This document shows positions 1,001-51,100 of a DNA stretch of 64,000 nucleotides, piece after piece. Positions within the stretch are counted from its first letter, which is position 1; each line of letters opens with the position of its first letter. The stretch is from Raillietiella orientalis (Eukaryota), in the NCBI GenBank assembly GCA_036172245.1, contig JAYWIR010000024.1, positions 2,852,001-2,916,000 on the forward strand. The letters are read 5' to 3'. The translations under genes were made by a program, and so were the position numbers. Below the pieces are notes generated by a model. That model was not told the origin of the DNA. It saw nothing but the letters and a program-made list of their open reading frames with translations, and ran no database searches.

Positions 1001-1049
1001 TCCGAAGAACGGTTCGCAGACCGGCGACATCCGCTTCGGCAGCGTGGGG

Positions 1050-12060: not shown

Positions 12061-12499
12061 CCGAAAGCTAAGATTGGAGGTGGAAAAGGAGATTCGGCCG
12101 AATGGAGGCATCCCAATCCAGACATCCGCGTTCCGCCCCTTGTTCTCCCTTACCCCCTCTCTCTCTCCGAGGCGGATAAAAGTGAGCCAAGGACCCACTA
12201 CGCATCCGTCAGCCCGCTACCGCGATTACTCGAACTGAGACGAAGGTTCCTATGGCAGCGTGCAAGGAACGCAAAGGTGACGTCGCAAGACCCTTTTCCC
12301 CTGTCCACCAACCCTTTTTTTTTTTCCTCCTTGCTGCTTCCGTTCCACTATTTGGCCAGCGCTGCGGGAAGCTCCCGTTCCACGAAGACCAGGGAGGTTC
12401 TCCTCGTGCTTAAGAGAGAAAGTCTACAAGCAGAGAGAGAGGGTGGGGTTGGGAGTGGAGTGGATGGGAGATCCTGCGCCGGAAAACGCTGGACTTTCA

Positions 12500-13800
12500 A
12501 GAAAGAGAGGGATGTTGGGGAGAGGCTGCCTCTCCCTCTTCCCCCGGGGGAGGGATTGCTGCCGACCTCATCCCCTGGGGAAGCTGCGGTCCGTTGCTTT
12601 CGACCGCGCGCCGAACACATCTCCCACAGACTCCCGACGTGACGGCCTCCCCTTCCCGCCTCCGCCTCACCATCTGCTCCTCGGGTGCTTCTAGAGACCC
12701 GGGACCCGCCGCGGAATGCTCATGGGGTGGATGCGATTTGAGGTGAGAGGAAAGGTGGGAAAGCAGCCTGGCCTCGTGGAGGTGGCTGGGCGGCGCCGAG
12801 GACTGCAGGCGGGAACGCGGCGGTCCAGGAAGAGGAAGGAAGTGGGGTCGAAGGCTTATGTGTCCGCGCGCGCTAGCACGGCGGTGCTGGAGTTCACCCT
12901 GCTTGCTTGGATGGTGGTCCAACTCGCGCTCTCTCCCTGCTTCCTCAGCCCTCGCCCTGCTTCCCCTAACCTGATTCGTGCCCATGAACCGCCGCCCAAT
13001 CTTCCCGGAACCAAGAGAAATCCCGGATCCCTTACAGACTGAGCCCAGTAGAACCAGAGGGTCGGCCCCTGGTTACAGACCACAAACTTCCGTCGCTTGT
13101 GAGCAGCCTTCTTGGTCCGTGCTGCGGTCTCTCAAAACAGGACCACTCCATCCTTTTGGCATGCTTCGCCCAACCTCGTAGTCCAAGGTTCATCAAGACG
13201 CTTCACCTCCAGATGACTCTGGAGGTCAAGCACCGCCTCCCTTTCCCGGACCTCATCCCGGGCGGCGGGAGACGGAGAGAGACGTTCTTTCAGGACCGCC
13301 ACGGAACCTCTGCATCGGTAGGATTGAGGTGGGGTGGGTCGGGGGTGAGGAGACGCCGGTGAACTGCGTCCCGGAGTCTCCCTGGAGGCACGGCGGGTCA
13401 GAGAGATCGAGGACACGGTCATAAGGGTCGCTCCCCTGGGGGACTCCAGTACCCTTCCTCTGAGACGTAGAGACGTCCTTCCTCTCTTTCTTGTCATCCG
13501 GGTGTCTGGCCCTCCGCCAAAGGACTGAACGGAAGGAGCGGGCTGAATCTTCGTCCGCAACTTCGGGGTTGCCGTGCAACGCCCGGCGGGATTCTCTCCA
13601 TGCCTTCGCCGAGAGCTCTCCCTCAACTGTCTTCCCCATCGAAAGCCGGCGGAAGACCCTGCAGGCGGATCCTGTCCGGAGAGGTCGCCCGCGACCTCAG
13701 TCCCCTCCGAATGCAGCGAGGCAAGAGGGAGGTCACGTGGGAGGCTTTCAGAGTAGAGGAGGAAAGGACGATGGAGAGGGGGAGGAGTCCCAGCACGCGC
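12500..13800 (-). mobile_element. LINE relic, RT to CCHC
   Basis: GTGVPQGSD (13253-13639 ORF), SHLEVKRLDE...CQK (KYLGVxLD), VCGRCVRRAVES (CCHC). Confidence 0.65.
13042..13185 (+). repeat. ~150-bp direct repeat, copy 2
   Basis: See 9844-9995. Confidence 0.93.
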
Positions 13801-14989
13801 CCCTGCCTCGGGCTCCAAACGCGGAACCTCGCCCCACAGGAGGAAGGGCGAGAAAGGGGCGGTCGGTGGCATCAGCCAGCGAGGCGCGCCTTCCCGCCCA
13901 TCCACTCCCCTTTCCGGCGGGGAAGGCACGCTCCATCCTTCTGGACGTGTGTCAGGAGCGAAGGGAGGGCGGGAAGGGGAGGAGAAGGAAAAATGGGGGG
14001 GGGGGGGGGGGGAAGGTACCGAGCATCCTCTTTTGTAGCAGGCTGGATTGGTCGCGTCCACTTTTTGTGGGGGGATTCTTTTTCCCTCCTCCCCCTCTGA
14101 CCCCTCTCTTGGTCCAGCGCCTCCGGTCGGAAGTTCCCCCGCTGGCCTTCCTGGAGGGCGCGCCACTCCTAAGGTGAGGACGGTTCCCCCTTCCCCTTGT
14201 CTTCCTGTGCCCTGCTGCAAGGAAGGCAGGGGCAGAGGGACAGGAAAGAAAGGGTAGAGGCAAGGAGAGAAGCATCCAGAGACGTGAGCCAGGAAGGGAT
14301 GCACTGGGACGCCCTAGATGCACCATGCGCGTAGGGCCTTGCTCCCTCCTCCCATTCCTACTGCTGCTGTTGCTGCTGCTCCACCATCACTTTCCCCTTC
14401 TTCCGTTGCCCTCCCTCCCGCTCGTTGTTGCGCGGGTGCGAGAGCGAAGGAAACAGGGGAGAGAGAGAAGAGGGAAGCATCTCAAGAACCGTTCGAACGG
14501 CAGGAAGCGTACGGATGCTGCGGGCACCTCTCCGGAACCGAGGGAGGGGAAACTTCCGCCTTCTCTCGGCCGCTCCGCCCGACGGGGAGTCCTCCACATC
14601 CCCTGACGCCCTCACCCTACGCCTTTCTTTTTTCCCCACCTCCTTGCCCTTCATTTCTCGAGGGGACAACCATTGTTCCCGCTCCTGGGGACGAGGAGGG
14701 GGCGGGAGGAGCGAGGGGACCCGAATCCCCGCGTGCGCGCGCAACCGTGGAAGCAGAGGGTCCGTCCCAGGCGCGCAGGAAGGAAAAAAAGGGGAGCGAG
14801 GAGGATTGAAGGATCCGCGAGAGAACAATGCGCGCCCGACGCTCCGCTCGCGTCCCTGTTTGGGTGCGCAGCTCTCGGGATTCGTCTCGGAGGGCTTCCG
14901 CGAGGGAGCGACACAAAGAGCCCCCGAGGTGAGGAGCGCTGCGACCTTGCACGCTGGATTAGCCCCACCGCAGGTCGCTCCAGGGGGTC

Positions 14990-17700
14990 CAGGACTCAGG
15001 AACTCGAGGGGACGCGCTGGCTGCTTCGCTCCTCGATCCCTTCCTCCTCCTCTTGCTTTTCTCCTCCTCCTCCTCCCCTGCCTGGAAAACGCGATCTCGG
15101 ATTTGCTCTCCCCGGGGGGGGCGGAAAGGTCGCCGGCGTCGCGCCCCTCCTGTTTGGCCGGCCCTCGCGCGTAGGCAAGCGACGAGCGGGTGGCGCCGCA
15201 GGAGGGGACACAGCAGCGGCGGCGGCACGCTCACGAGGCTTTGGCGGCTGCGCCGCCAACCCGCCGCGGGAACCTTCAGGAAGGGCGGTGGACCGACTCC
15301 CCTTCAGTTTAGTGCCACCCCTTCGCGTGTTTGCTCTCCGCGCGGCAAGGCGGAGGCGCACCCACGACGGTGGCATCCCAGGTGCCCTGCTCCTAGTAAC
15401 GGGACGACCGCCTCCTTCCGTCCAGACGCACTCTCGAGCCGACGTCGATCCCCCTGCTTCCCGTTTTCTCATTCGGTGGTGGGGCAGCCAGACGCATCTC
15501 GAGGATCCTACTCCTATTCTCTTGGGGCAACAGCAGCGGCGGAGGGAGGAGGAAGAGAAGAGGTGGGAGGAGAGACGCTGATGCTTTTGCCAGGGTGTCC
15601 TCAACAAGCAGCGCCCTCCGCGGTCCTGTCCTGCGCGCACTCCCCAGAGATCCAAGAGCACATTCCAGCTAGCGCCGGGGTCCACGCAAGAACGCAATTA
15701 GCCATCTTCCCAGGAGCGCTTTCCATGACGGCAACAGAACGCTGCGTCATGGCAACGGCCGATCGATCACGTCTATCTCATCCCCGATCGCTCCCAACGA
15801 CGAGCACGTCAGGTGGATATACCCACCCTCAGTATCCTTTCTCCTCTTCTTTCTCCTCCCCCTCCTCTCCTTTCCCTCCAGCAATTTGTTTGTTTTCCTC
15901 TTCGCCGATTCCAGAGATGATGAATCGAGCTTCGAAACCATGACAACCAGCGATTTCGCCCGGGAGGGCCTGTGACGGAGCAAACGGGGCTCTTTGGAAC
16001 GGGGTCCATCTGGGTCATCGGTCATCCTGGAAATTATAGTGCGCAGTGCACCCGCGGCAGGCGTTGGCGCCACATTTCCCCCTGCGCGGCTCACCACGGG
16101 CGTCCTTCCCTTCTTGCTCCCGAGTTCTCATGACACTCGCAGCTGGCCTCGTGGTGTCCGACGGGTGCAATTCGGCTTCCTGAGCATCGCAAGGGGCAGT
16201 TCCTCAGGTGGCCCTTTGGACCATCTGAGGAACCGAACAAAATTCGACCTATCTAGTCCAGGAGTCTGGCAGGAGGGAGAATCGCGTACCGATCGACCAC
16301 CTCCTTGCGGCAGTGGTCGATTCCTCTTTTTTCTTCTTTCCTCTTCCTCCTCTCCGCCTCCGCCTTCTCTCTTCCTCTTCCTCCTCTTCTTCTTGCTTTC
16401 GATGCTGCAGAAACCGGACGTTTCCCCTCGTTTCACCCTTCCCTTTTCGCTCTCCCTCCCATCCTGAAGATCTGCAGGTAGCTGTCGAAGCCCATGCGCG
16501 AGAAGAGACGCCGCGAGCGCCGTGCCACGGGGAGAAGAGTAGCAGGGATCAGGGACTCCGTCCGCCACCACCCTCTCCCGCAACGCGCGCTCATGCGCGG
16601 TGGTGCTGCAGAAGATAGCGGAGGGGCAGGGAAGGGGCCCTCCCAGCTGCCCCCCTCCGCCCCGGGAAGGAGGGAAGGAGGGGAGATGAGCCACTGCCGC
16701 CGCGGAGACTGATCTGCCCCTGCGAGTGCAAGAACACGGGTTGGCCGTCCCCCGTGGCCCTCTTATGATGCATGGCTGCCGCGGTAATCGACGGGAACCC
16801 GGGGAGACGGGCACGCGGGATTCCGGTCCGCGCGCCCGTCGGAGACCCGTGATTGAGGGCTCTCCTTATTTTTATTTTTATTTTTTCTATCTGGCCTGTC
16901 CGGACTCCCCCTCTCCCAATTCCCTTGTGATTTAGGGGTGCACAGTCCATCGTCTATTATCCCGGCGCAAAATCTTCGGAAACAAATTCTTTTCTTAGGG
17001 GTGAGATGTGTTTACGTTTGATGGTCATCCATCAACGGATATGACATGCATACAAGGCGGGTACAATAGGAGAACGGTCTCCACGGAGACCTCCCCTTCC
17101 TAATGGATCCCTGGAAAAATGCCGAAGGATTGTTGAGGGCATTCTTTCTCCCGAGCGGCACCGGCTCGGGAGCGAACCGCCGCGGGCCTCCTCTTTAGAA
17201 GAGGAGCCGCCGCCGGGAATAAAATGGGAAGAAGCGACGGCAGGAAGGCGCATTCCAGACGACCCCTCCGGTTGCCCTGGGGGATCTGGAGAACGTATCC
17301 TCTCGGCGCGGAGGAAACCCTACGCGGCGGCCGGCTCCGTGTGCTGGTAAAGGAGGAGGCGGGTGAGGAGACCGGTGCGTGGATGGGCGTCTGGGGTTCA
17401 CAGAGCTCCGCGAACGCAGCATCTCGAGGTGAAATCCCAGCCGAGGGAGCGCCGGCGCCTGGAGTCCGGATGCGCGAGACGAAGAGCGCTGGAGGGCGGT
17501 CGGTTGCTTGGCATCCGTCCTCTACTTCGCTCCCTCGTCCTGGGTGAGAGGGGAAATTCCCTCGCGCTTCTCCCCGCGCCGTTCTCTCTCGATCCTGTCC
17601 TCCTTTCGTGGCTGGAAGCTTGGGGACTGCCTCTCTCCGGTCAGTCGTCTCAGGGAACGCCCCATCCCTCATCTCACAGGGGCGCACGCTAGTGCTGTCA
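14990..17700 (-). mobile_element. LINE EN-RT relic
   Basis: GYVL..ATGGVVW (EN), MHHKRA (SDH), PSCQTPGLD (domain 0), LLGRWLIAFL, VTRSRAPGM (domain 7). Interrupted by GA/CT tracts. Confidence 0.5.
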
Positions 17701-17779
17701 GTTGTCTGGTCAGGAGAAGAAGGCAGGTCGCAAGACCACGGCGCTCCCTGACGTCAGGTGTAGAAGACAAGGAAACGAG

Positions 17780-19900
17780 CGTCTCTGGAAACCTCTGGGC
17801 CAGAGAGAGGAGATGAATTCTTTCTCCCGGCGGTTTCTTCCTCTTGTTTTGGGGAGCGGCAGGAGAAAGGGAGGAGATCGGGATCACAATAGGATAATGA
17901 CGACAGCGAGAGTGGTGTGGATAGGCATGAGAGTGAAGACGAAGGCATATCAGAGGAAGAAACCGCCGGGAATATGACATGCAGCCGAGCAACAGGATCA
18001 GCAGACTCCTCAGGGATTGAAGAAGGTTTGGTAGAATGCGTCCATAATCGCGTGAAGTCACTGCCGCTTCTGGCGGCCATCACGATGCAGTGAGTCCCCT
18101 ACGAGGCGGAGTGGAAAAAAGAAACACTGTTGAAGGGAGCCCCGAGTCCTCGGAAGGTCTGTGTGCCTCCTCCTCCCTTCCTCCTCCTTACCAGAGGCTG
18201 CGTGTCTCCAGCGAGAGCGCTTCGGGCTAGCTTCGAGATCGCCCATTCCGGCGGATGATGGATGACTCCTCCACCACCCTAGGGAAGAGTGAAAAACAAA
18301 GCGTTCTCTCTCCACGCACGTGTCCCTACTGCTGCTTCCGCGAGCCCCCAGCTGACTCTCGGACCGCGCGCCCCTCTTCGAGAGAGAGGTGGACCAGTCC
18401 TCTCTTGGACGACTGTCTTGAACCCCCTAGAGCTTCCCCGCCCGCCACATGCTTTCGGCCTTCCTGTTGCGGTCTCCATCCCCGTCGCTGACGTCACGAC
18501 CGCCGTTTGATACGCTGTTTCTTACCATCATCTTCAGTCTGCGAAGACCGTACGCATCTCTAGCTTTTCCAGCACCCTACCCTTTCCCTTATCGCTCTGC
18601 AGTAGTTGTGCCCCCGGGACACAAAAAAGCCATCTCGTTCAGGGTCTGGTGATTTCACCTTTCCGGACCGTTCCTGAGACAACTCACGCCACCCACGTTC
18701 CCTATTTCTCCAGCCCATCGCCTCGGATGCTTATCTTTCCGCTTCCTCAGCTGCCTCTCGTTTGCTGTTGGTCTCAGGTGACTCTTGTAACCCTTCGTCA
18801 AGAGCTACGGAAGAGCGTACTTTCGCACTACTTCTGGACGCCCGGAGCCATGCGGGAGAACTGTCCTGAGGTCTTGGAAGCCCTGATTTCTTCCTCCTCC
18901 CCCCTTTCTCGTTCTCCCACCACTCTTGATTTTGAACGGATCATTGATACCTTTCCGGCTTACTATCCCTCTAGCGCTCCCAACGAGCCGGTCTCTAGTG
19001 ACTGAGAGCAGCGGTTCCGGGGACTCTCCGGGAACACAAGGGTCTCATTCGGTTCTTCCTGACTCCTCAACGCGAAAACGGCACGTAGGAGCGTCAGCTG
19101 CAGAGCGCCCTTGAATCCTCGAGGAAGAACCCACCAACGAATGGCTTTCGAGAGAATCACCAAAGTTTAGGAACGACTCAGCTCTAGGCCTCGACAAGAA
19201 CAAAAAATTCCCGCTCCAGAAAAACCTGGAAGAAGCGCCAGGGAGGAGGAGAATGACCTCAACAGGAAAACTTACCATGGGCATGCGTCTCCCGTCTCCT
19301 TCCTTTCCAAGGTCATAACCTGACTCCGTAAACCCCAGAGTTCAGTGCTTGGCTGCCCGCACTCTGGTATGGAACGAGATACGCCGCGGCACACGCAGCA
19401 GCTGGGCTTCCTTGCCAGGAGTCACGACTACCTCTCTCGGCCATCTCAGCGACGCAGGGAAGCCGTCCAATAGCTCATGCCCAAATCCACAGCCGTCATC
19501 GTAAAGGTTTCTGCTGTTCCTTCGCAGGACTGGCGTCGGATTTCGAGAAGACGCAGCGGAAGGAGCAAGGCGGACTGACCATCCATTCTTCCCGCTCCAG
19601 GAGAGTACCGGTCCGAGGGCCACGCTCCCTGGGATCACGCAATCCTTCAAGCACCGACATCTCACGGAAACCCCAGGGTTCCTTGAATGAAGGTGGACCG
19701 AAACCACGCTGCGCAACGGTTTGCTCCAGCGTACGGCAGAGACGGGAGCGTACGCTGGACTCACCGTCCGTACCAATGAAGCATCTGGGCAGTGGTAGCA
19801 GCGGCAACGACATGTGCCTAAACGAGCAGATCGCAAGGCATCCTGGAAGGCAAGTCAAGCGCTCTGGACAGGTCGCTCTTGCGCCACCATGAGCCCGTTC
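17780..19900 (-). mobile_element. Miniaturised full-architecture LINE relic (gag knuckle, EN, RT, CCHC)
   Basis: GCGFGH (zinc knuckle), FGDSLESHSLVGSSSRIQG (GDFNAHxxxWGS), EEEIRA..MAPGVQ (domain 0), VFAD* (YADD), EES..LLLGC. Confidence 0.55.
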
Positions 19901-20163
19901 ATTGGGTAGTTTTTTTCCGTGCCGACGAAGCCTGGCATCCTGCTGAGATAGATGACCTGGTCGTAGTCAGAGTCCCGTGCATAAGGTGCGAAGGATGACC
20001 GCGAGCAACAAGGCGATTGAGAGAAGTTGGTTTCAAAGGAAGCTCAACCTCCTGCACGCAACTCCGATCGCGATCAGGTCATCCGTCGTAGCAGGATGCC
20101 AGACTCCGTGGGCACGGAAAAAAACTGTCCAATGAACGGGTCCATGATGGAGCAAGAACGACC
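19871..20163. repeat. Ungapped inverted repeat (111-bp arms 19871-19981 and 20053-20163, 71-bp loop)
   Basis: Manual alignment gives 21 mismatches in 111 nt, 17 of them transitions, with no indels. Confidence 0.9.
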
Positions 20164-22149: not shown

Positions 22150-22950
22150 AGAAGACCGTTGCTAGATTTCCCGCTCCTTCGGGGCATCGCCGTCCACCAG
22201 ACTGCTGGAGGACCTGGAAGACTGCTGTGCGCACGCATTCCCGAGGAGCAAAGAAGACCTGCCCCCCTTCCTTGCGCGAGGTTACGCAGGATGCGCGCGC
22301 GGTTCACTGCCGACCCCGAGCGGTCACTTCGCCAACGCAACGGGAAGGCAGACCTAGGGAGTGCTCTTCGCGTTGGACATCCTTCCGCTGAAGGTTGAGG
22401 ATCCGTGCGGGGGGCTTGGACTGATACCACCTTCTTCATCTTGAACCACGCGTATCTCATTGGATCCCTGCGCAGTCATAACTGACCGCGGCCACTGGGC
22501 GAAGATATTGGAAAGCCGGTGGGGATTTCGAGAAGTAGTGCCGATTGTGCAAGAAAGGAAGCCTTCATTGCTGTGCACAAGGACGCTGCTCGCCTCTGTG
22601 GTCTTCATAACCATGCCGTCGGTGATGGCTTGCTTTCTGCTAGGGATGCTTGTTCGCAGCCCCATCCAGCAATACGTCTCTCTCTGCTCCTGCCCTTCCA
22701 GACGGTCACCGTCGCGCATCGGAAAAACACCTCTCCTCACTTCTTCCCAGCTCTGGTAATGAACGAGTGTCCTGCGCGCGTGCTCTTTCCTTGTGAATTT
22801 GCGAGCTCCGCATCCCTCTTGATATCTTTCTGTTTGCTGCTGGTTGATTTGTCTCTGGTACGCGCCTCTTTGAAGAAAACATTCCAGAAACGCCGTAATT
22901 CAGCGTCCACTCTTGAAGGCTGGCGAGGCCTCCTACGACGAGGGACCACT
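22150..22950 (-). mobile_element. APE endonuclease relic, inverted paralog of 24400-24700
   Basis: LRRFWNVF (EN start) and DPMRYAWFK...RSDRS (YTW...SDH). A 37-bp identical block lies at 22432-22468 / 24499-24535. Confidence 0.5.
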
Positions 22951-24049
22951 TGCTCTCCTCCGGTGCTGTTTGTGCTCACACGCGATGCAGCCGGAGCTGT
23001 GGAATGCTGGTCCCCGGCTCCCGACCAATGAGGTCTTGAGAACCCTGTCCACCCAGCTTCCCGGACGGGACAACGAAACGGCGTTTCCGACCTCCTTCTC
23101 GTTGCTGCTTACTAATGAAGTCGGAGCTACGCAGTTCGTAAGTCGCCAGCATCAAGGTACACGCATCTCTCTCTTCGCAGCGCACTAGCCGGTGATGCCT
23201 TCTGCTCGAGATGCCTCTCTGCCTGTCAGTGTTCCCAAGCCGCATGATGGGCCGGGGATTCTATGCTCTCTCGTTAACTTCGCTTACCCGTACTCACCGT
23301 CGGTTGGTTCGTGCGGCAGTGCTGCTTTTCAGGGAGCGCTTCGTACAAGAATCCCAGTAGAGGAGGCGCAGGTGAGGGCATCAGAGAACAGTCGAGGTTG
23401 ATCAGCGGTTTCGTTGCCGTGAGGAATGCCTTGATCCCTGCACCGATGTCCTAGACTCTGCTGCTAGGGAGCGGCAAGCAGCAGCCAGCGAGGGAAGAAA
23501 AGGCAAGAAGACAACCCCCTGATAAATCAAAGCAATCTGGAATCCCGGAAAACCGTCTCCCATCCTTGAAGATCCAAACAGACGGAAACGGTGTCTGGGA
23601 ACACAGCTCAAGTTGGTTCGCGAAGACAGGGGCAGAACGCCAGTTCACGGTTGAGGAATCAGGATGGCGTGTCGCGGGCAGGTCGCTCCTCTGACCGAAG
23701 TGATGTGAAGCGCATCAGAACGTCTTCTGAGCACGTATCAGAAAAGCATCCAAAGAGTGACACTTCTAAGATCAGACGAAGGGAGGCTTCTGATTGGCTC
23801 CCACCTCGAGGAGCTTAAAGGAAACTCAGCTCAACCCGAACCTATGGCAACCTTGGTTGCTTCGCCAAGATCCCCGAAGGACCAGCTAAGATGGAGGAAG
23901 ACACACTCAAAGTACGAAGAGTGTTCAAGAGAAATGGGCTGAAAGGAAGAGGATGCAAACTGGGCTTCACCCTGGAGTCTCGCACAGGAATCAGAATGCG
24001 CGTTGTCACCGTGCACCCCCGAACGCGACCTTCCTTCGATTCTGGGCGG

Positions 24050-25500
24050 CCGCTGACTTCGGAAAACTCAGCAACGGAAGCTCCGTTTGAAAGTCGCAAA
24101 CTGGACGCCAGGATCCTTCGTTGCCTGCAGACTCGAAAAACAGAGGGAGGAGCGTACGGTGTGGCTTTTTGGTGTGTCACACCGGAAGTTCCGGGAGCGC
24201 GCTAGGGGAACGGCTTCGGAGCTTGAGAATGTTCCGGTCCAGCGGGAGCACAGGTTGGAGCCGCGGTTCTCAAGATGCTGGTTCGATGCTGCCACCAAGC
24301 AGCGCAAAAGGCGATTCCAGGAGGGAACAGGAACGAGGCTAAGCTTCCAACAGACCGCAAAAATCGACCTTTCCTGGGGGAAGAATTAAATTCGACGTGA
24401 CCCGATGTGGTAATGTACCAACAGTCAGTAACCAGTTGCTCTTCCAAGATCATCCAATATCTTCCCCCAGTGAGCCGCGTTCAGTTGTGGTGTACGCTGG
24501 GATCCAATGAGATACGCGTGGTTCAAGATGAAGAACGTAGTATCGGTCCAAGTCTTGCATGGGCCTTCGATCTTCAGCGGAAGGATGTCCCTCCAGGGTC
24601 CACCCCAACGTGAAGAGCACTCACCAGGTTTACCTCCCTATTGCGTTCCTGGCGGTGACCGCTCGGGTCTGCAGCGAGCTCTCGACCACTCGACGGGACG
24701 AGGACGAATGATAGGAAGAATGCGACGGATTCGGTCCACTCTTTGCCCATTCAAACAGATCGGTCGGTCGAAACGAATCGATGGAACGAGCGTTCTGGTG
24801 GGTACCGAGCCAACGGGAGCGTTCAGTCACGAGATGGCTAACAGCAAGTGGAAGCGAACAAGCAAACCTCTCTGCATGGAGAAAAGTCCCTCCTGCCTCG
24901 GCGACCAAAAGATGCACGCTTTGATTCCGGGAACACTTAGCAGGCTTTCTCTTTCTGGGAACAGGAAGCAGGTTTCCTGTTTCCAGAAGATTGTTAGCAG
25001 TCGCACAGGCAGTGAGGAAAGTCAGAGTGGACGGGAGAGACGTGAAACCAAAAGCGCCGCTAAAAGGCTTCCTCCTCGAAGGGGTGGCCAGCTTGGAGAA
25101 TCGATCCTCATTGACATCCAACGATCAAACGGATGAACTGCGACCCTTCATCCCTCGCCTAGCAGCAGACGTGCCGCTCAATTAGAAGCTCCGCTCGTGT
25201 CGTTGATCTGGAACGAACCACATGCTTCTTCTTTCGGACTCTCAAACACCTTCGGCGACGCCTCCTCTTCGGGTAGGGAAAGAGGCCTGCACGTGCGGAC
25301 GGCGGTTTCGGCGCGTGCGCGCGCTCACTTGGCTTTCGGACTGCAAGTGTTGGTCCTGAAGCGCCGCGAGCCTGACCACTCATCGATGGCCACTCCTTGC
25401 TCTTGCGCACTAGCCTGCAAACCTGGCTCTGGCCATCATCCCTCGCATCTCCAGGTATTCCCTGCATTTTCAGCCACTCGATCCAACACTTTGAGGATTG
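24050..25500 (+). mobile_element. LINE EN-RT relic, plus strand
   Basis: ILRCLQT..GVAFW, YAWFK, GDRS (EN). EKSP, ALIP, RLSLS..FQKIVSSR..SQSG, ILIDIQR, RGLH (RT domains 0-4). Confidence 0.55.
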
Positions 25501-30500: not shown

Positions 30501-32100
30501 AAGGGTGCTAATCCACAGCGGAATCTGGCGGAGGAGGGACTCTGGGCAGGGAGGGCGGTGTCGGCGGCTCCCTCTCTCTATTCGAACGAGAAGCCATCTA
30601 GGGGATGCCGGCGCGTCCCTTCTCGGGTTACCGAAGCAGGCAGGGGAGCTCCCAGCGTTCCCAGAGTGGAAACCGCGCGGTTGGGGGGTTTCCCCGTGGA
30701 AAAACAACAAAAATGAGAAAAGGAGCGGGGGTGGCCACCCTCCCGTGGGGCATCTCCGTTCCCCTGACGGGGCCCAAGGACATTGATCTCAGGATCGGCG
30801 CCACCATCAGAGGACAATTCCGTTCTTTCGCTCCTGCTGCGTGAGCGGTTGCGAGTCGGAAGAGGACTGGGGTGGGGAGAAGGGGAGGATCCCTCCTCGA
30901 CTGCGCTGCTGAAGAGCCAACGGTCCCTCATCCTCCTCCCGTCTCCTCGCCCTCTATTCCCTCTCCCACGATGGTTGCGGTAGCGCGCAAGAGACCGCTT
31001 GAAGGAGATAGGGGAAGAGAGGAGGAGAAGGAAGGGAGGAGGCGCTTTCGCGGTTCTCGGTTGGGGGTTCCTGAGGTTCCAGGAGCTTTCTGGAAGGGCT
31101 CCTTTCTCCTTTATTTCTCTCACGTTCTCTTCGGAAAGACGGCATCCCCGGAGAGCCGACGTCCCGTCTGGAAACCTGAGATATCCCAATCACAGCTGGG
31201 CAGGAGAGGCCCACGGCCTTCGGCTTTCGAAGGTACTCCCCGCCCCCTGCTTAGACGCTCTTGCTGGTAAACGTACCTCCCGAGGGTGGAGGAAGAACGT
31301 CCTGGCAAGCGGCATCCCCTGAGATCTCCGGATTCGCGGAGGAGGAGGAGAAAGGAAGGGACAAGCAGTCATTCTCTTGCCCCGCCTCTTCTGGGCGCTC
31401 CTGAGCGGAGGCCCGTGGGCGCTACTCTCCCATCCACATTCTGGAGAAGTAAGTTCCCAAGTTCTGTCTTCCTGGAGGCCCAAAGAAGTCCTCCCACGTT
31501 CCCGATACGTCCGCACCCCATCCGAGTCAGGAGGGATCCCCTGTACGTGGCAGCAGGGGACAGCTACCCATCGGAGGCAGCTCCGCCCTCTGCCTCCATC
31601 AGCTGCTCCCCCGTGAATGCCTGCTGGAGACATCCCAACATCCTCTCATGGTAAAGACCACCCCGTGGTGGTCGGGGACCAGCTGGCTCCGGAGCATGGG
31701 CTGCTTCAGCCGCCCCTGCCCCGGGATCACCGAGAAGAAACCTTCCTTCGCCGAGCCGCCCCTCCAGGACGCCTGTGCATCTTCCACTTACTCCGTTTCC
31801 ACGGAAACCTCGTGGATGCGCTCGGTTCCTGCTCTGACCGGCTTGCCCTGGCTCGTGCTGGGGAACGAGTCGCTAGGGATTTTCCGAGGAGGGAGCACCA
31901 CATCGGGAAGAACAGCGACCGAGGACACGCCACACGTGTGAGGGAGGTCACGTACGGCCAGTGACCCTGACCTCTACTTTTGACCCGCGTGCGACCGCAC
32001 TGTCACATCTTGGGGACCGAACTCCCGGGTCGCGCAGCTCGCGACGGGAGCGGCGGGTTTCCCTGGAACTCCTTTTTTTCCTCCTCCCCCTCTTTTCCTT
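27600..32100 (-). mobile_element. Long LINE relic (ORF1 remnant, EN, RT)
   Basis: A CW-containing knuckle-like remnant at ~31630. SSWNLR, YLLQAV, EINVLGP (EN, 30650-31100). VSRGAPGQG, AETDDLI, LEAFSFLA (RT domains 4, 5, 7; 27950-28420). Confidence 0.55.
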
Positions 32101-32449: not shown

Positions 32450-33450
32450 GTCAGCGCACCAGCCACTGCCGCCAAGGATGCCCTGGATGGCTGATTGCTC
32501 CCGGTGTCAGCAGCCTGGGAGCGCAAGCCCCCTTCCCTGCTGGATCTCCTGATGCCCGGCCGAAAGTTCCGGACCTTCTCTCCAGCGAGACTCCACGCAG
32601 AGCAAGCGAAAATGGCTCCGTGATGAGCGCCATCTAATCCTAGACTCGACCCTCCTCATCCACGACCTCCTTCGCCCATTTCCTGTCCAATGCACGTGCC
32701 GCACCCCACTTATTTCATCTTGCCCAAAGTGACCAACTGGAGGAGAGGGACGCCAGTCTGAATCACCGGAGCCACCCGGGGAGACCTCCAGCGTCCTCTG
32801 GAATTCATGCAGCCTCCTCCCGATCCAGCGTACCAGCTGCACACGCGCAAGGGAGAGGTGGTAGGGATTAGGGAGGAGGAGCGAGATCCCTCCAGGCACT
32901 CCGCGATCCGTTGCCATGGCGTCGGGTCTGTTCGGCGGGTTTGCGGGCAGCCACGTACGCGCCGACCATGCTCACGCGAGAAGGGGAGGAGGAGGATAAG
33001 GGGGTGAGGGGATGGGAAGAACTCCCGCAATCTGAGCTGCGAGTCCCCTGCGCGCATGTACGCATCTGCTCAGCCTCAGGAAAAGTGGGAGCGGCTGGAG
33101 TGACCGACCCTTCTAGCGGACAACCCCCCCCTATGCGGTCGTGCTCGTCGGGTCAGGGGCAAAGGAAGCTCCGGTCAAGAGCAGGATGCAGAGAAATGGG
33201 GGGGGGCTCGCAACAGTACAAGGGAAAAAGGAGGAGGAGGGACTTTCGTCCACTGACCATTCGGCATTCGAGAGCACGGGATGATGTCGCCGTCCTTCTC
33301 CTCCTTGAGAGGAATGGGGGCGGGGAACCGGGATGCCGGAAGAGGAGAACGAAGAGGGAAGGGAGGAAAAGCTCGTACGGCCCTTGGCTGGGGGTTCACG
33401 CGGTCCCAGAATCCTTCTGGAAAGGCTCCCGTCCCATGACATCACGTTCC
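32450..33450 (-). mobile_element. RT relic
   Basis: DRGVP.EGS (domain 4), WYAGSG (YADD), MRRVESRIRW (LGxxxDxxLxW), GRGLALP. Confidence 0.5.
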
Positions 33451-33599
33451 CATCGGGAAGACGACGTCACTCCAGATCTGTCGGATTGCCTGGTTTCCGG
33501 GGTCTCCCGCAGCTCCCCCGTCTTGTCCCGCATCTCTCTTCCCCCTTTCCTCTGCTCCGGAGATTGCTTCCCCCTTCTCCCTTCCCGCAAGGACCGGAC

Positions 33600-36050
33600 A
33601 GCCCCTCCGTCGAGGGCCGTATGGAGGATTGGGGGGTCCAGAGGAAAGGAATTGGGAAAGCAGCTGCCGTGCCTGCTCATGTGGACCTCCTGCGCTTCCT
33701 CCTTCTTCCCTGGAAAAGAGAAGGACGTGCGAGGGATGGAAGGCAGGCAGGGAAGAGGGGAAGTGGGCGGAAGGATGAAGTTTGCCTTTCCGGTAATCGT
33801 GAGGACCAACGTCTTCCGCATGATTAAGGTTCCTCCGCCGGAGAGATTCAAAATTCCCGACCCCCATCTCTCGGGAAGGGGATGGGGGGTGGATGTCCAT
33901 GTTGCTCTAGAGGATTGCGTTCCTGCCTCTGCAATCCGACGGATCCAGAAAGCCGCGCTCTCCTCCGGGCAGGCCGGGCCGAGCCCACCGGGAGCGCCAT
34001 CCGAGGGGAAGCATGACCCCAAGATTGTGACCCCTCGTCGTTGAGGAATAAATTCCCTTCCTCCCTCCCTCCCTGCTCCCGTCCGTTCCTTCTGATCCGG
34101 AGGAAATCTCGAGTCGGGAAAAGCCACGTTTCCAGATGGGGAGGTCGTGCGCGCGATTCCTCCTGCGCCTCCGCCCCTGAGGGGCCTCCCATCGCCTTCG
34201 CCGCTCCCAGGATCCCGAAGCTCGCAGGCCGGCGGGGGCGCGCGCGTGTTCCGCCTCGGCGGCCCCGGCGGGCACAGATGGCCTCTTCGGAGGACGCCGG
34301 GACCTTTCCCACGCTCCTTCCCTTTCCTTCCCTTGAGAGGCGACCTCGGGAGTCCGGGGGCGTGCGCACCGCCGCTGCCGTGAAACCCGCCGCCGCGCCG
34401 CCTCCGTGCGGGGCGAGAGCACCACCGCGGTGCGGGCCTACCCCGGTCGCCGCCGTTCGCGTTTCTGCTTCCGGTCCGCGTTCTGCGGACGAGGAAGAAA
34501 GGGCGAGGACGGAGAGAGAGGGTGAAGGCCGAGGTGCGCCAAAGAGCCACCAGAGTGCCCGGCGGAGGCTCCACCCGGGACCTCCAGGACGATGACCCTC
34601 TTTTCCCTCTGTCCTCCCTTTGGTCTTACGGGCCCATGTTTCCAAGGGGTCTCCCTGTTGGGAAGAGGAGAGAAGAAAGGAGGAACAATTTTCAATGACG
34701 GCGCTCCCTCTCCCGGTCTCCCGACGGCGCCGCCAGCGGCGTTCTCGCTCTTCCGAGGGTAGGAGCTCTCGACGCGAGACTGGCACGGCCGCATCCAGGG
34801 GCAGGAAAGGGCGGAGGGAAGGAGGCAGGAGAAAGAGGGAAGGGAGAGATCTTCCCGTCATCCAGCGTCGTCGCCCTCCGACCGACAGCCCTGCTGGGGT
34901 CACATGGCGGGCGGCTGCAAGCGCGCGACAGGGGGTCTCTTACCTTCGCCTCCTCTGTCCATGGACCTCGTCTGCCCTCGCCCCTCGGGAGGGATGCGAC
35001 TTTCGTCAGGAAGCGCCTCCTCTAGGACGTTCCGTCCGCCCCAGCAGGTGGGGGGCGTGTCGTCCACCACCACGAAATCCTCTCATCTCGGGGAAATCCT
35101 GGGGCCTCCGCACGCTGAGAAGTGGGTCCACGCACCACCGGAAAAAAATGGCGGAAGGGAAGGGGTGAGGCGAGGAGAGAAAGAGGAAGAGGTAGATGGA
35201 AGACCGTGGAGAGGAAGCAGACCTGTGCTCCTCCTCCTCACCCTCGTGTCCATCTTCACTCTACCCGCCTTCCCTTTTTCCCGTCCCTCTTGAGGCGACG
35301 AAGGGTTGTGGTGGATGCCACGCTGGCGCGCTCCCTGGTGGGTCACTTTCACAACCGGAAGGAGTAGGAGAAAAGATCTGGCGACAGCGAGCATCGACCG
35401 CCCAGGAGGAGGTCCTGGGCTAGGCGCGCCCACTGCCGCCAAGCGGTCGGGAGCCGCCGTCGCAACCGCCTCGAGCAAAAAAGGATTTCCTTCGAGAGAT
35501 CATACTGTGAGCGCCGTCGGGCAAGGAAGCTGCCCGTGTCCCGCCCCACCCTCGCGGGCGCGTGCGGGCGCACACCACGAGCCCACTGCTCCCGATCCCC
35601 CCCTCTCCTCAGGATGGGGAAATTCGCGCGCAGCAGCCTCCTCTGAAGAGTGAGCGTTGTACTTCCTCGGCACCGCTGAAGAGGAAATCTCATCTTGAGG
35701 GAAAAGGGGGAGGGAAAGCAGGGCACGGGAGAGGGACCCTGCTGGCGGAGGAGTGCTGCGAGGGAAAACGCCTGCTGTCTTCCGAGGTCCATGTAGCTGC
35801 TGCCCCTGCTGCCCCCATCACCATACACGTTCCCTTGAGTGATAGTGTGGGAAGCAAGAGCAGGCTCAGCGCGAGGATTTGCCTACTAGAAGGACTCCCT
35901 CTGCTGAGGATGACCTCTCTCCCGCTGGGGGTCTCGGGGACGAGGACGCTAACCCGAAGGAGAGACCCTTTTTTCTCGGTCCTCCCTCTGGCGTGCCCTT
36001 CCGCGGAGCGCGCCGCTTTCTACCTTCTTTCCGAAGGGCTCGTTGAGTTC
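33600..36050 (-). mobile_element. L1/Tx1-like EN-RT relic
   Basis: VLVPET, SAEGVLL, GNVYG (EN). WSLRRALWWLFGAP, GPHRGGALAP, VPASSEE, GVTILG, LNLSGGGTLIMRK (RT and thumb). Confidence 0.6.
34717..35072 (+). repeat. Perfect 356-bp inverted repeat, left arm
   Basis: Reverse complement of 37331-37686. Translations are identical in multiple frames of the ORF track. First mismatches are at 34716 and 35073, and the flanks remain similar but diverged. Confidence 0.95.
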
Positions 36051-37330
36051 GGGTAGCCGATCTTCAAGGGATTCTGCCGGAAGAGGACGGAGAGGAAGAG
36101 GAGGCGATGTCTGCACGGGATGAGCAGCGCAGCCTCCTTCTGCAGGCTGCAGAAACAACAAGAGAACAAAAAAGAGAAAGAAAAAAATGCAGCCAACAGC
36201 TGCTGCTGCTCCTCCTCCTCTTCCTCTTCTGGGAGGCCATCTTCCCGGAACAGAGGAGGAAGACAGGCCCTCCGAGAGTGTGAGTCCTCCTTGGTCAGCA
36301 GACTCACTACGGATACTCCCACGAACCAAAGAGAGTCAGTTCGTCCCCTTAGAGTGGGAGTAGGTGAGCAAGAGAGACCCCGGCGGAAGGATGGAAGGTA
36401 CCACGGATCGCTTCTTCCTCCTCCCTCTCTCTCCCGTGACGCCTCTCCTTCCTCCTGACCGCTTCCCCGACAGGAAACGCTGCTCTTCTTCCCCCCACGT
36501 CAGGAGCTCGTCGCCAGCTGCTCCCTCGTTTTCGTTTCAGCGGCTGCTCCCGCAGCTCGTTGCTTCCCGGTAGTCGGCGCTACTGATGCTGGATCTCGGC
36601 ACCGGGGCGCCGTACACGCGAGGCGGCGAGCGAAATAGCACGTCCTTCGGGCGAAGGCACCTGCATCACTCGTGACCTTGGGAGGTCCTTCCGCGTGCGC
36701 CTGGCTGGAGGCCCTTCCGTGGGGCCAGTGAGCGCCTTGGCGAACCCGGAGCTTCCTCCTCCGCCTCGCAAACCCTTCTCCCCCTCGTTCTGCATCCCTT
36801 CTCGCCCTCCCTGCCCTCCGTGGGCTCTTCCTCCAGCGTGATTGTCCCCGGAAGCCTCGAGAGGAAACGGCCGCCCTGCGCTGCTCGGGAGGCGTGCGGG
36901 GCGCATTCCTTGTCGTTGTAGAGCCACGAGACCGTAACGCCCCCGGGGTCGATCTCAGTGACCGTTCCTCCCAGCCCAGGAGCACAGCGCGGCCTCCCTT
37001 TCTCGTGAATCGGGACAGCAGCCCACCCGCTCTTCAGCGCGGGTCGAGAGAGAGAAAATCGAAGAGGAGGGATCCCTGTCTCTTTGAATACTCGATGTTT
37101 TCGCACCCGTTCTAACTCCCCCCAAAAGGAGGGGGGATAATAGGAGCATCTGTGAGATGATGGTCTGCTTCAGCTCCTCCAGCGGCGGGTTGGTTGGCTG
37201 AGGAGAGAACCAGCCACCCTTCCCAGCTGGTTGAAACAAAAAGCTCACTGGTAGGAACGACGCACCTGCAGGTGGGCACTCTCCGTAGGGTGCCCAATCC
37301 CGGGAACTTCCCCGTGCTGAGAGGATTTCA

Positions 37331-37686
37331 TGGTGGTGGACGACACGCCCCCCACCTGCTGGGGCGGACGGAACGTCCTAGAGGAGGCGCTTCCTGACGA
37401 AAGTCGCATCCCTCCCGAGGGGCGAGGGCAGACGAGGTCCATGGACAGAGGAGGCGAAGGTAAGAGACCCCCTGTCGCGCGCTTGCAGCCGCCCGCCATG
37501 TGACCCCAGCAGGGCTGTCGGTCGGAGGGCGACGACGCTGGATGACGGGAAGATCTCTCCCTTCCCTCTTTCTCCTGCCTCCTTCCCTCCGCCCTTTCCT
37601 GCCCCTGGATGCGGCCGTGCCAGTCTCGCGTCGAGAGCTCCTACCCTCGGAAGAGCGAGAACGCCGCTGGCGGCGCCGTCGGGAGA
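37331..37686 (-). repeat. Perfect 356-bp inverted repeat, right arm
   Basis: See 34717-35072. Spacer is 2258 bp. Confidence 0.95.
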
Positions 37687-38399
37687 TCGGGAGAGGAGCA
37701 CCGTCGTCGAAAGTTGTCCCCCCACTCTTCGTTCTCGCCTCCTCCTCCTCCTCCCTTCTCTCCCTAACCGTCAGCGGGCGAGAGGTCATCCTGGGTGGAG
37801 GGAGCCAACTCCTCGCATCATCGCGCAAGGGGAGATCACGGTTGGCCATGGAGGACCGACGATCGTCCGAGGAGCGTACCATCTCTTCTGCTTCATTCAG
37901 GGAGCAAGCTGGAGCAGCACCCCGGTCCAAACTCCGGTGGAGGAGAGGCACACGGGCGCTCAGAAGGAGACGGGGCGTGAGGAAAAGGAAGGGAGCAAGG
38001 GAAATGCAGGAGGAATGGTGGAGAAAGAGGAGCGGAGGAGGAGGCGAGCGGCAGAGTAAGGAAGGAAGGGAGGTGGAGGAGGAGAGTAGGTGGAATGGGG
38101 AGAGAAAGGCGAGCGCACGCACGGGAAGCTAGGTCTTTGGTTCCGTCGCCGTGTGAGCAGCACGGACGGAGGGGAGGGAGACGCAAAGGGAGGGTAAAGC
38201 GGGGGTTGACCAGAAGGCCTGCGGTTCATCCTTGGGAACGGCGCTTTCCGCGACGTCGGACCATCAATCACGTGCGCGGCGAAGATCGCGGGGACAATCG
38301 AGCGAGGGGGCCATTCATCATCTCCCGTCTTCTTCGCGAGGTCGCCCAAGGATCCATAAATCTTTGATTTCGTTATTTGGAGTTATTAAGATGGGATGC

Positions 38400-39020
38400 T
38401 CTTCCGGCGGGTTTGGAGAAGAGATGGGGAGGACAGGGGAGGATGGGGGAGGAAGAGAAGCAGAGGAGAGAGAGGAGGCCGCCTGCAGGCCGTACCCGAG
38501 GGATGCGGAGGAGAGAAACGCCACATCTCTCCATCCACCGCCGTTTGAGGGCGGTATCCAGCGGGAGATTGGCAGAAAAAAGGCAAAGGGTGTCTCTCAC
38601 GTGCTCCGCTTGCGCTGAACCAGGAAGCTTGGCTAAGGACGGTGCATCCGCCTTCTCAGAGACTCCTCTCTCGGGAGCCCGCAGCGCGCGCGCGGCACGG
38701 ACACCCAACTTCTGGTTTGACGCGATCCGCTCGGGAGCACCGCCCTCCGAAAATCGGAGTAGCCCACCCAGAAAAGGGCAGGGGGGCTTGGTGGTCAGCT
38801 CTGGAGCCCAATGGGTTTGACGCGTCGAGCAGCTGCAAGGAGGACCCGGCATCGTGGGTCCGTCCGCTACGAGGCGAAGGACGCCGCAGAAGTAATCGGT
38901 TGAGGGGAATGGAGTGCAGCGAGATACGGGACCCCTGTATGTGGAGGGGAAAAGAATGGCTCCTTGCCACCCGCCGGAAAGATAACGGGACGCTTCCCTC
39001 CTACTGTGCACCCTCCTCCT
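38400..39020 (-). mobile_element. RT relic (domains 2-5)
   Basis: TYRGPVSRC (YRPISL), LLDASNPLGSRADH (LDxSKAFDxVxH), GVSEK..PSL, LCLFSAN (LFADD). Confidence 0.55.
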
Positions 39021-39467: not shown

Positions 39468-39601
39468 GCAACAATCGGTAGGAGAGAGACACACGCTCGC
39501 AACAATCGACCGAACAGGCGCGCAGGCTCGCAACAATCGGTAGGAGAGAGGGAGACTCTCGCAACAATCGACTGGACAGGCACGCAGGCCTGCAACAATC
39601 G
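39468..39601 (+). repeat. 31-bp period minisatellite with alternating A/B units (62-bp higher-order repeat)
   Basis: GCAACAATCG occurs at 39468, 39499, 39530, 39561 and 39592. The intervening 21-mers alternate gtaggagagag... and ac.g.acaggc.cgcaggc... Confidence 0.92.
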
Positions 39602-48400: not shown

Positions 48401-49339
48401 CCACTAGGCGATCGCTTCTTCCCTGCAGCAGTGTCCACAACGGACCCGTGCGGCGGCGCCCCGCTTCCCTTGGAACCCGTGTTTTTCTCGCGGAACCCGC
48501 GCATCACTTTGCCGAACCAGGCGAGGAGCAGCAGAAATTGTGGTTCCCTAGGCTGCGGGTCATCCCGAAGCTGTGTCTGGAAGGAGGTTCAGGAGGCTCT
48601 TCAGCTGGAAGTGACTCGAAGGAGTCGTCTGTACGACAGCTTCTTCGGCAAGGACGTCGTAATCCTCTCCCCTGCATTCTGGTACGCCTCCTCCCGTCCC
48701 CGTCGTCAACCTCAGCATTCCCGTCGGCGGATCATTTGTTTAAAAATAAAGCAGTCGAAAAATCGAGTAAATTTTACGAATTCTGGGAACGCGTCCAGGA
48801 CAACCATGAAGAGAGGTTGCGTCCATCCTTCCCGCATCCCTCGTCTCTCCTTCGACCGGTTGTCAAGGAGACATTGACACGTGGTGGAGGGTGCCAGGGG
48901 GTCTGCGTTAACGTGGTCCGGTTCCCGCGAGACGGGATCGAAGAGCATCCCTCTCAGGGAGTTCAGCTCAGGTGGCCGCTGTGGTCGACGCTCTCCATCC
49001 CGGTTCCGTGAGTCCGGCGTCTAGGAGGGTCCGGAAGCGATCTCAACTCGGACTTGAACAGGTTCAGGTGAACCCCGTCCCCTCCGTAGTCGCCGACGCC
49101 GCGCGCTCATGTCGTTCCGGATGGACGCTGCTCCGTAGCCGACGGACCAGAACTGCTCGTCGGTAAAAACCCATCAGGCGGGCAGCGGCCATGTTCGCTC
49201 CATCGATCTACTCTTCGTCTAAATCGGATTGCCAGCTGATCTTCGGGTCGTCGGGAGCGTTGGCCACCGTACTGGACGTTCGGTGACGTGTGAATTTTTT
49301 CCTTAGGAGACTCTGGAGTCCTGAAAGCGCGCCCAGATG

Positions 49340-50200
49340 AACTGTGACCGCTGCAGAGTCTCCTACGCAAACCGCTGGGAGATCTCCTGAAGGATTGGAC
49401 GCAGTGGTCCCGGATAGCCGTCACACCCTTGCCACAGCGCTGTCTATCCTCAGGGCAAGTAGTGGCAGCAGCCAGCCGGCGGGGTGGGAGTTGGCCTGCA
49501 ACACTGCAGGAGTCCAGGAACTCCTGGCCAGCTGCAAGACGAGCGAGTTGGTGAATGCCGCCACACCTCGTTCCTGTAAGAAAGGACTTCTTCAATGGGG
49601 TGACCTGCTTGGTGTGCCTCCCGAAGAAGAACTCGCGATCCCTCCTCCGTGTGTGGACACTTGCGTGTTCTCGCTCCTGTGGACACGGGACGTTCTGCTG
49701 TTTCTGCACTGGGAATCCCGGTGCAATCAGCACGGACACCTGGCTTCCGGGGGAGTTGAACCGCCCCGAACTGTTCCAGACGATGGAATCGTTCCTGCAG
49801 CTCCTGTTGGACTGCACTGCCGTGGAGGACTTGCGGCGGAGACTCCCTTCGGAGGACCGACAGCCGCAGGACACCGCTTTGGACCTGCTGCGACGCTTCT
49901 CAGCGGAGGCGAGCTGAAGAAGGGCGCTGTGATCGCAACCATCTGTTGCGTCGGCAGCCATGGTGACAGCCCGCCACGTGTTCGAGTCAGCTTCACAGCG
50001 GAGAGCAGCATGACAGCAGCCCTCATGAGAACAGCAAGGGGATGGCCTGATCTGCCAGAAGTTGCCAGGAAGATCACCACCATCCAGGACCGCTTCTAGA
50101 AGGAAAGGAACGTCTTCAACCAAAGACACCTGCCACCACCCTCTCGTCTTTATTTATTTATTTACTGCCCCCTCCCTCCGTTACCAACTTTTTGGAAGCC
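49340..50200 (+). mobile_element. LINE 3' end relic (zf-RVT-like) and 3' UTR, family A
   Basis: TLATALSILR..GW..KTSELVNAATP..GLLQWG aligns with the 2560 copy. Also ESFLQLLLDCTAVEDL and a (TTTA)n-like UTR. Confidence 0.65.
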
Positions 50201-50299
50201 GGTCTGCGTTCCGGTGGTTATCCCGGAAAGACTTTTTTTGGCATTTTTCGTTTTTAAGGGGGGACTCTTCTTCCCTTCTTCCTTGTAGTTTGTTTGTTT

Positions 50300-51100
50300 T
50301 TTCAAGATAAACGTCACGGCGTCATCGAGTAAAAGTCTCAGGCAGCTGGTGAAGGGTTGAAGTGTTTCCGTATTTCGGGAGGCCTGGTGGTCAGTTGGAA
50401 CTTGCGATCCTGGTGATCCCACTGAAGCTGCGTTCGGATGGATTCCCTGGAGGGTATGTGGAGAGCGATATCCCGACGTGTACTCTCCCGGTTCCCCAGA
50501 GCCAGTCCGTGCGCTTCCAGAGTGTCCTCGAAGGAATATCTTACGTCTGGAACGATGGCTCGACGTCTCCCTCGAAGCAGGAGAGAAGAGTCTTTCCCCT
50601 GTTTTGGCGACTACCGCTACTCGCACACGGCAGGAGCGAAGTCCTAAGAGGTCAGCACTGTTCCAAGCAGATCCTTGAGGTCATCATCGGGGAGAGAGCT
50701 CTCCCACCCTAAACATGGCTTCCTGCCGGTCCCCTCGCTTTGGCTTCAGGTTCTCCTTTTGAAATGGGGACTCGGGAAAGCGAGGGACGCCATTCGAGCG
50801 ACGCGCTCTTCCTGCAAAGAGAGGGAAGCCACAAGGCGCAAGCGGAAGAGGAAGCAAGCCCTAAACGACGTTCGTCTTCGTCGTCGTCCTTCTTCTCCCT
50901 TCCACTCAAGAGAATTGTGGAATCTGCGCCAGCTCGAGGACTACGGATGGAGGATAAGAAGCCTCCACAAACACGCGTGCCCACTACCGGGACTGCTCTG
51001 CTGCCTCGTGGGAAAAAATTCTTGCAGATGAGGCCAGAGCAGGTCGCAAAGAAATCGCGGAGTTGACTGAAGCATTGAATTTCCCATAATGCTTTGTCGG
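50300..51100 (-). mobile_element. Weak RT relic
   Basis: QSSPGSG (domain 0), GDVEPSF (domain 3), LLLDDAV (domain 5). Confidence 0.35.

What the first reader, a model, noticed from the sequence alone, without database searches (positions are those of the whole stretch)
34697..37710. Perfect 356-bp inverted repeat embedded in ancient, decayed paralogous LINE sequence
Seen: 34717-35072 is the exact reverse complement of 37331-37686, with a 2258-bp spacer. Immediately outside the core the arms stay homologous but diverged (gaaatcctctcaTCTcggggaa vs gaaatcctctcaGCAcggggaa). The copied DNA is itself degenerate, with stops and a low-complexity tract, so it is not a fresh retrotransposition. Inference: a recent arm-to-arm gene conversion tract between old inverted paralogs, as in palindromes. 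The arms could also mediate flip-flop inversion of the spacer, which carries an APE relic, or form a 356-bp dsRNA stem if transcribed.
Basis: partly seen in the sequence, partly recalled or inferred. Interest (0 to 1): 0.72.

Follow-up and report, generated by a model that had tools for sequence, protein, structure and literature searches.

The report
Converted inverted duplicate, LINE link unshown
Two flipped copies of a short non-coding stretch lie 2 kb apart with identical middles and old, diverged edges, the usual mark of copy-correction (gene conversion) between neighbouring duplicates, which is a known process and common in this part of the genome.

Summary
34717-35072 is the exact reverse complement of 37331-37686 (356/356, spacer 2258). 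Homologous but about 26%-diverged edges run only 55-59 bp beyond the core. The arm has no other copy in the genome search, so it is not a young dispersed repeat. The LINE label for the arms and the 'APE relic' in the spacer found no support: Pfam, PDB, a 1.84-billion-protein search and profiles of this genome's LINEs gave nothing there, while the same profile found an old endonuclease relic elsewhere. The pair is one of many: in 634 kb of the contig, 32 of 102 repeat loci, in 13 groups, have a partner with a near-identical core, in both orientations and 0.3-344 kb apart. Best reading: interlocus gene conversion with decay at the edges, as described for Drosophila duplicates (PMC2588116). Divergence rises stepwise away from the core, favouring repeated conversion over one event. 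Spacer flipping and dsRNA are untested. This scan noted the same pattern on other pieces of this genome.

The parts
34661..34716 (+). left arm, outer diverged edge (homologous to 37687-37745, inverted)
   Evidence: anchored score 54.5, 0 of 400 random pairs reach it
34717..35072 (+). left arm, 356-bp core identical to the reverse complement of 37331-37686; 68% GC; non-coding as far as tested
35073..35131 (+). left arm, inner diverged edge (18 mismatches in 59 bp, no gaps)
35132..37271 (.). unique spacer, 2140 bp, 61% GC; no protein family, no transposase, no detectable APE relic
35869..36107 (-). possible much older third copy of the outer half of the right arm plus about 80 bp beyond it; weak, not established
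   Evidence: (score 68, 0 of 227 controls reach it) but (tile score 60; reversed-sequence control reaches 63)
37272..37330 (-). right arm, inner diverged edge
37331..37686 (-). right arm, 356-bp identical core
37687..37745 (-). right arm, outer diverged edge

Best explanation
An old local inverted duplication of at least 475 bp of GC-rich non-coding DNA, whose two copies have been kept alike by non-allelic (interlocus) gene conversion. A break or lesion in one arm is repaired by copying from the other arm 2.2 kb away. Tracts cover the middle more often than the ends, so the centre is reset to identity while the edges escape and diverge, and the recognisable duplicate shrinks. The last event(s) covering the 356-bp core were recent. 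Shown: identity, edge homology, uniqueness of the arm, the stepwise edge gradient, and the same pattern in many neighbouring pairs. Inferred: that recombinational repair did it, that it happened repeatedly, and that it has no function. The donor arm is unknown.
For: Exact core with 26%-diverged, in-register edges on both sides. Permutation test of the alignment: 0 of 500 shuffles reach a 356-bp exact run. Edge differences: 4 in 38 columns within 20 bp of the core against 25 in 78 further out, Fisher p=0.012. No third similar copy in the genome search or in 634 kb. Context: 28 of 347 alignments of 200 bp or more in 634 kb have a 200-column window at 95% or more, against a main mode at 70-80%; 22 of the 25 tested are significantly patchy; several show several identity strata. 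For three homogenised copies of high-copy old families, near-identical partners lie only on the same contig and the other full-length scored copies reach at most 78%. Two family copies not chosen for having a partner have no near-identical copy among those listed. The model and its edge prediction are published (PMC2588116, passages; PMC3924837, passages).
Against: One assembly, no reads, no relatives, so no outgroup or polymorphism evidence. The gradient rests on 29 differences and a split at 20 bp that I fixed after seeing the alignment. A single replication template switch gives almost the same end product. 3 of 25 tested neighbouring pairs are not patchy and may be plain recent duplications. 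No GC bias was seen in homogenised family copies (8675 vs 8677). The genome search scores only its best 40 candidates and skips very common words.
Confidence: 0.75

Rival explanations
1. A single replication template switch or microhomology-mediated break-induced replication event overwrote one arm with the other, using the 55-59 bp of about 74% homology at each end to leave and rejoin.
For: Short spacer and inverted orientation. Template switching is described as turning near-perfect inverted repeats into perfect ones (PMC5453318, passages). The core ends sharply with a mismatch at each side.
Against: Identity next to the core (about 89%) is higher than further out (about 68%), which one event does not predict. 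The same signature occurs in direct pairs and at 20-340 kb, outside one replication fork (inference). The cited paper concerns short events.
Confidence: 0.11
2. The exact identity is an assembly or polishing artefact: arms that are really 95-99% alike were made identical by mis-assigned reads.
For: No reads could be laid. Zero differences in 356 bp. Other pairs also have long exact runs (734, 606, 447, 424 bp).
Against: Most neighbouring pairs keep scattered differences inside their cores. The arms are short with unique flanks on a 3.13-Mb contig. Even if true, this removes only the exactness: a near-identical core with diverged edges would still need explaining.
Confidence: 0.07
3. The arms are the long terminal inverted repeats of a decayed DNA transposon or foldback element (Mutator-like, MITE, DIRS-like), and the spacer is its body.
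For: 475-bp inverted arms round 2.1 kb is a typical layout (general knowledge). A similar layout, 76% identical, lies at 22304-24677.
Against: The outer ends are diverged and gapped; no target-site duplication abuts them (best: a low-complexity 7-mer off the ends); no other copy; no transposase or recombinase family in six frames of the spacer. This could at most be the origin of the duplicate; it does not explain the identical core.
Confidence: 0.04
4. The arms are a selected device: an invertible switch for the spacer, or a hairpin RNA source, kept identical by selection.
For: A 356-bp perfect inverted repeat can in principle support crossover or pair in a read-through transcript (inference from sequence).
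Against: No gene, RNA family or tRNA was found in or beside it. The single arm folds no better than shuffles (z -1.17). About a third of repeat loci nearby show the same homogenisation, so no special cause is needed.
Confidence: 0.03

Closest known systems
Gene conversion-degeneration model for duplicated blocks in Drosophila (PMC2588116; passages read)
   Same: High identity in the middle of a local duplicate, raised divergence at the edges, shrinking identifiable block.
   Different: Here the block is short and non-genic as far as tested, and there is no second species to date the duplication.
Non-allelic gene conversion among transposable-element copies (human LTRs, PMC4921805; fly TEs, PMC11226609; passages read)
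   Same: Copying between dispersed paralogues, favoured in cis and at short distance.
   Different: The arm is not shown to be a TE. Neighbouring pairs here have homogenised cores of about 0.2-1.2 kb at up to 344 kb, against maximal tracts of 14-450 bp in the LTR paper and the under-10-kb expectation quoted in the fly paper.
Primate sex-chromosome palindromes with arm-to-arm conversion (recalled; seen here only as reference titles in PMC4921805)
   Same: Inverted arms, unique spacer, conversion between arms, possible spacer inversion.
   Different: Those arms are many kilobases long and gene-bearing (recalled). This arm is 0.47 kb with no gene found, and direct pairs nearby behave alike.
Template-switch mutations that perfect inverted repeats (PMC5453318; passages read)
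   Same: One arm copied from the other in reverse complement.
   Different: Described as short, local events; does not predict graded edges or direct and distant pairs.

Membership tests
LINE (APE-type non-LTR retrotransposon) relic | APE endonuclease homology in the spacer or arm | tested here: not met
   Pfam on six frames of spacer and right arm, stops as X: no APE family at E<=1. Profile from 37 APE domains of this genome: no hit in 33-39 kb, but E 1e-11 for an old frameshifted relic at C24:2.365 Mb. PDB: no nuclease. phmmer of one arm frame on 1.84 billion proteins: 1 hit, a tandem-repeat protein. A relic of a family lacking intact members here could be missed.
LINE (APE-type non-LTR retrotransposon) relic | RT or C-terminal ORF2 homology, or DNA homology to this genome's LINE families | tested here: not met
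   tblastn of the longest open frame of 12 RT loci: no hit below E 2.8 in 33-39 kb among the best 100 printed. ORF2 profile: none in 33-39 kb. blastn, nhmmer and tblastx against 634 kb: only low-complexity or non-significant hits.
Interlocus gene conversion tract | Tract of identity far longer than flanking divergence allows, inside pre-existing homology | tested here: met
Interlocus gene conversion tract | Raised divergence towards the block edges | tested here: met
   4/38 vs 25/78, p=0.012; small numbers, split chosen after viewing
Interlocus gene conversion tract | Paralogues closer to each other than to their orthologues; polymorphisms shared by both copies | not testable with these tools
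   No relative of this genome is held; no reads available
GC-biased gene conversion | Excess of AT-to-GC change in homogenised tracts | tested here: inconclusive
   Core 68% GC vs spacer 61%, but 8% of 356-bp windows in 27-44 kb reach it. In 8 family pairs with other copies, GC-vs-AT asymmetry 8675 vs 8677, unpolarised. 3 of 4 pairs without family copies have cores GC-richer than both flanks.
TIR transposon / foldback element | Best-conserved outer termini, target-site duplication, other family copies or transposase | tested here: not met
Invertible (flip-flop) segment | Both spacer orientations present in reads or haplotypes | not testable with these tools
   no reads could be laid

The most novel reading that the evidence does not exclude
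This animal has an unusually permissive, cis-restricted ectopic repair pathway. Old dispersed repeats that differ by 25-30% from their family find a partner up to 200-340 kb away on the same chromosome, in either orientation, and become locked into pairwise or small-network concerted evolution, affecting about a third of repeat loci. The 356-bp inverted pair would be one short-range case. If conversion starts between copies only 70-75% alike, mismatch rejection is relaxed in this lineage, and repeat ages, duplicate dating and inversion rates in its genome are systematically distorted.
Probability: 0.2. Interest if true: 0.6.

Novelty: new member of a known kind. Interest (0 to 1): 0.2.

Why it matters
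By itself little: it is a clean, small example of a described process with no function shown. Its value is as one data point for a genome in which non-allelic conversion looks frequent and long-ranged. That would matter for dating repeats and duplicates, and would be a good setting to measure how far and between how diverged copies ectopic repair works.

Tried and rejected
Sequencing runs: none was listed for 33500-39000, so no reads were laid; no RNA holder listed. Pfam on 67 of the window's 132 long open frames: only weak, below-cut-off hits. Rfam and tRNA scans: 0. By eye I saw a possible frameshifted APE motif series on the + strand at about 37150-37560 and another on the - strand at about 36500-37000 (motif spacing recalled, from no call). 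Neither was supported: searches (only self, plus one hit at E 0.88; only a weak RNA polymerase beta-prime match, best stretch i-E 0.66, taken as chance; 0 hits), 53/56, 64. PF14529 finds only 4 places in the genome, all with the same coordinates as young-family PF03372 hits, so no intact endonuclease of another LINE clade was at hand as a query; a language-model look-alike search of the spacer frame was not obtained, which leaves a very distant relic open. A 50-nt GT-AG stretch in the core (37461-37510, + strand) and a pyrimidine-rich acceptor-like site near 36140 (- strand) were noticed, but no exon product matched anything. A third copy in the spacer is not significant in the wider tile scan. 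GC-biased conversion was not detected. An inversion-only rule is rejected: 19 direct vs 9 inverted homogenised alignments out of 179 vs 168; 9 of the 19 direct ones come from one cluster at C24:2.38-2.41 Mb. Paper searches with 0 results. Listings only. I make no claim that the pattern is absent from print. No supplements were read.

Full report
Observation. The two stretches are exact reverse complements over 356 of 356 bases; the match cannot be extended at either end, and the spacer is 2258 bp. It is the strongest repeat within the window. Beyond the core, homology continues for 59 bp inwards (18 mismatches, no gaps) and about 56 bp outwards (with gaps), then stops. Both edges are far above chance: anchored scores of 48 and 54.5 against a maximum of 19 in 400 random pairs. 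Edge divergence is 26%; core divergence is below 0.84% at 95% confidence. The duplicate is therefore about 475 bp: 34661-35131 against 37272-37745.

What the DNA is. The window is C24:2852001-2916000 of a 210-Mb, 491-contig genome. Earlier scan notes call the organism an arthropod; I did not test that. The arm gave 2 candidates and 2 matches in the genome, the arms themselves. The 8.5 kb around it gave only five short extra hits of 33-107 bp. The genome is LINE-rich (3358 RT candidates), and old dispersed-repeat relics lie elsewhere in the window (1.0-3.2, 6.5-7.2, 11.0-11.5, 20.4-20.7, 44.7-45.4, 49.3-50.3 kb); the one at 1.4-1.6 kb matches the C-terminus of LINE ORF2 weakly (E 0.008). But nothing ties the arms or spacer to a LINE. 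Pfam on six frames read with X at stops gave no relevant family. A profile of 37 APE domains from this genome found nothing in 33-39 kb while detecting an old, frameshifted APE relic at C24:2.365 Mb at E 1e-11, and an ORF2 profile behaved likewise. PDB searches of one arm frame and one spacer frame found no nuclease. phmmer of the arm frame against 1.84 billion proteins returned one tandem-repeat protein. The profiles come from one young clade, so a relic of an extinct clade could be missed. The label is unshown rather than disproved. No Rfam family or tRNA lies in the window. There is no target-site duplication and the termini are the worst-kept parts, which argues against a TIR element.

Context. 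I compared 58 pieces covering 634 kb of C24 (2,362,001-2,996,000) all against all; alignments crossing piece ends are cut, and alignments under 200 bp were dropped. Of 347 alignments (179 direct, 168 inverted), most peak at 70-80% identity in their best 200 columns, but 28 reach 95% or more (19 direct, 9 inverted). Of the 25 with an exact run of 60 bp or more, 22 are patchier than shuffles at p<0.05; 3 are not. Merged into loci, 32 of 102 repeat loci have such a partner, in 13 groups, 0.3 to 344 kb apart; the 356-bp run ranks fifth in length. The share of homogenised alignments falls with distance: 4 of 18 under 5 kb, 13 of 89 at 5-50 kb, 9 of 137 at 50-200 kb, 2 of 103 beyond (rows are not independent). 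Identity profiles often show several strata and graded edges. Three homogenised copies of old high-copy families were searched genome-wide (40 candidates scored each). The near-identical partners were on C24 only (98%; 96%; an 86/86/78% network with 95-99.5% patches), and the other rows were 68-78% apart from one 45-bp fragment at 84%. Two copies not chosen for having a partner had none (39 other rows at 72-76%; 25 other rows at 71-78%). This argues against a young subfamily and for exchange in cis.

Mechanism. The simplest account is interlocus gene conversion with decay at the edges. PMC2588116 (passages) proposes exactly this for Drosophila duplicates and predicts raised divergence at the block edges. 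PMC3924837 (passages) states that conversion makes tracts identical, needs a few hundred bases of high similarity, is more frequent at short distance and recurs. For this pair, differences number 4 in 38 columns within 20 bp of the core and 25 in 78 further out (p=0.012). That favours a retreating boundary of repeated conversion over one tract laid between 74%-identical copies, though the numbers are small and the split was chosen after viewing. A single template switch (PMC5453318, passages) cannot be excluded for this pair but does not cover the direct and distant pairs. A polishing artefact could account for exactness only. Spacer inversion and dsRNA are possible in principle and untested; no gene was found for them to act on, and the single arm has no unusual fold (z -1.17).

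Comparison and novelty. It works like, and by the testable criteria is, a converted local duplicate; the outgroup and polymorphism criteria could not be tested. It is not shown to be a LINE, a TIR element or a switch. Conversion between TE copies favoured in cis is reported for human LTRs (PMC4921805, passages) and flies (PMC11226609, passages). Earlier notes of this scan describe the same homogenised-core pattern on other pieces of this genome; none lies near this window. I use them as leads only. What may deserve attention is not this pair but the genome: about a third of sampled repeat loci have a homogenised partner, many at 50-340 kb, well beyond the under-10-kb range quoted for DNA-level conversion in the fly paper. 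Whether pairs were locked together while the family was young, or conversion starts between strongly diverged copies, cannot be told from one assembly, and the figure comes from 0.3% of the genome.

Verdict. Real feature, conversion reading broadly right, LINE/APE labels unsupported, no function shown. New member of a known kind; interest 0.2.

Noticed in passing
window 49320-50334 and L043 (C24:2806881-2807903): Two copies of an old 1-kb repeat family, inverted and 93 kb apart, share a 734-bp exact run (98% overall) while their last 55 bp or so are diverged and other family copies are 70-76% alike.
   Followed up: yes
window 910-2534 with C24:2508304, 2643904 and 2680596: Network of four old repeat copies, 36-344 kb apart in mixed orientation, with 95-99.5% patches among them and at most 78% to copies elsewhere.
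   Followed up: partly
L086:7423-8328 and L099 (C24:2715992-2716888): A 0.9-kb element with internal 360-bp inverted ends and a 200-bp middle, present twice 126 kb apart; one end is 70-84% alike and the rest nearly identical.
   Followed up: partly
L089:59-268 and L089:610-819: A second near-perfect short inverted repeat: 210 bp, 1 mismatch, 342-bp spacer.
   Followed up: no
window 22304-24677; 11756-18084; 19871-20163: Three older inverted pairs (76%, 76%, and a 71% hairpin) without an exact core; possibly pairs whose conversion has ended.
   Followed up: partly
window 31013-31161 and 33338-33483: Old direct duplicate, 68% alike, 2.3 kb apart, just upstream of the left arm.
   Followed up: no
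C24:2032495-2039047 and C24:1450000-1508493; C1:1113286 and C1:1822598: Pairs of hits with matching scores and query ranges on one contig, which suggest further homogenised pairs, one possibly 709 kb apart; not aligned.
   Followed up: no
L039-L041 (C71, C139) and hits: Young APE-RT LINEs with long open frames sit in head-to-tail arrays at about 5.5-kb spacing.
   Followed up: no
C24:2362001-2996000: GC content swings between 34% and 69% in domains of tens of kilobases, with little CpG depletion in the window (o/e 0.91).
   Followed up: no
window 39468-39601: 31/62-bp tandem array, about 4 units.
   Followed up: no
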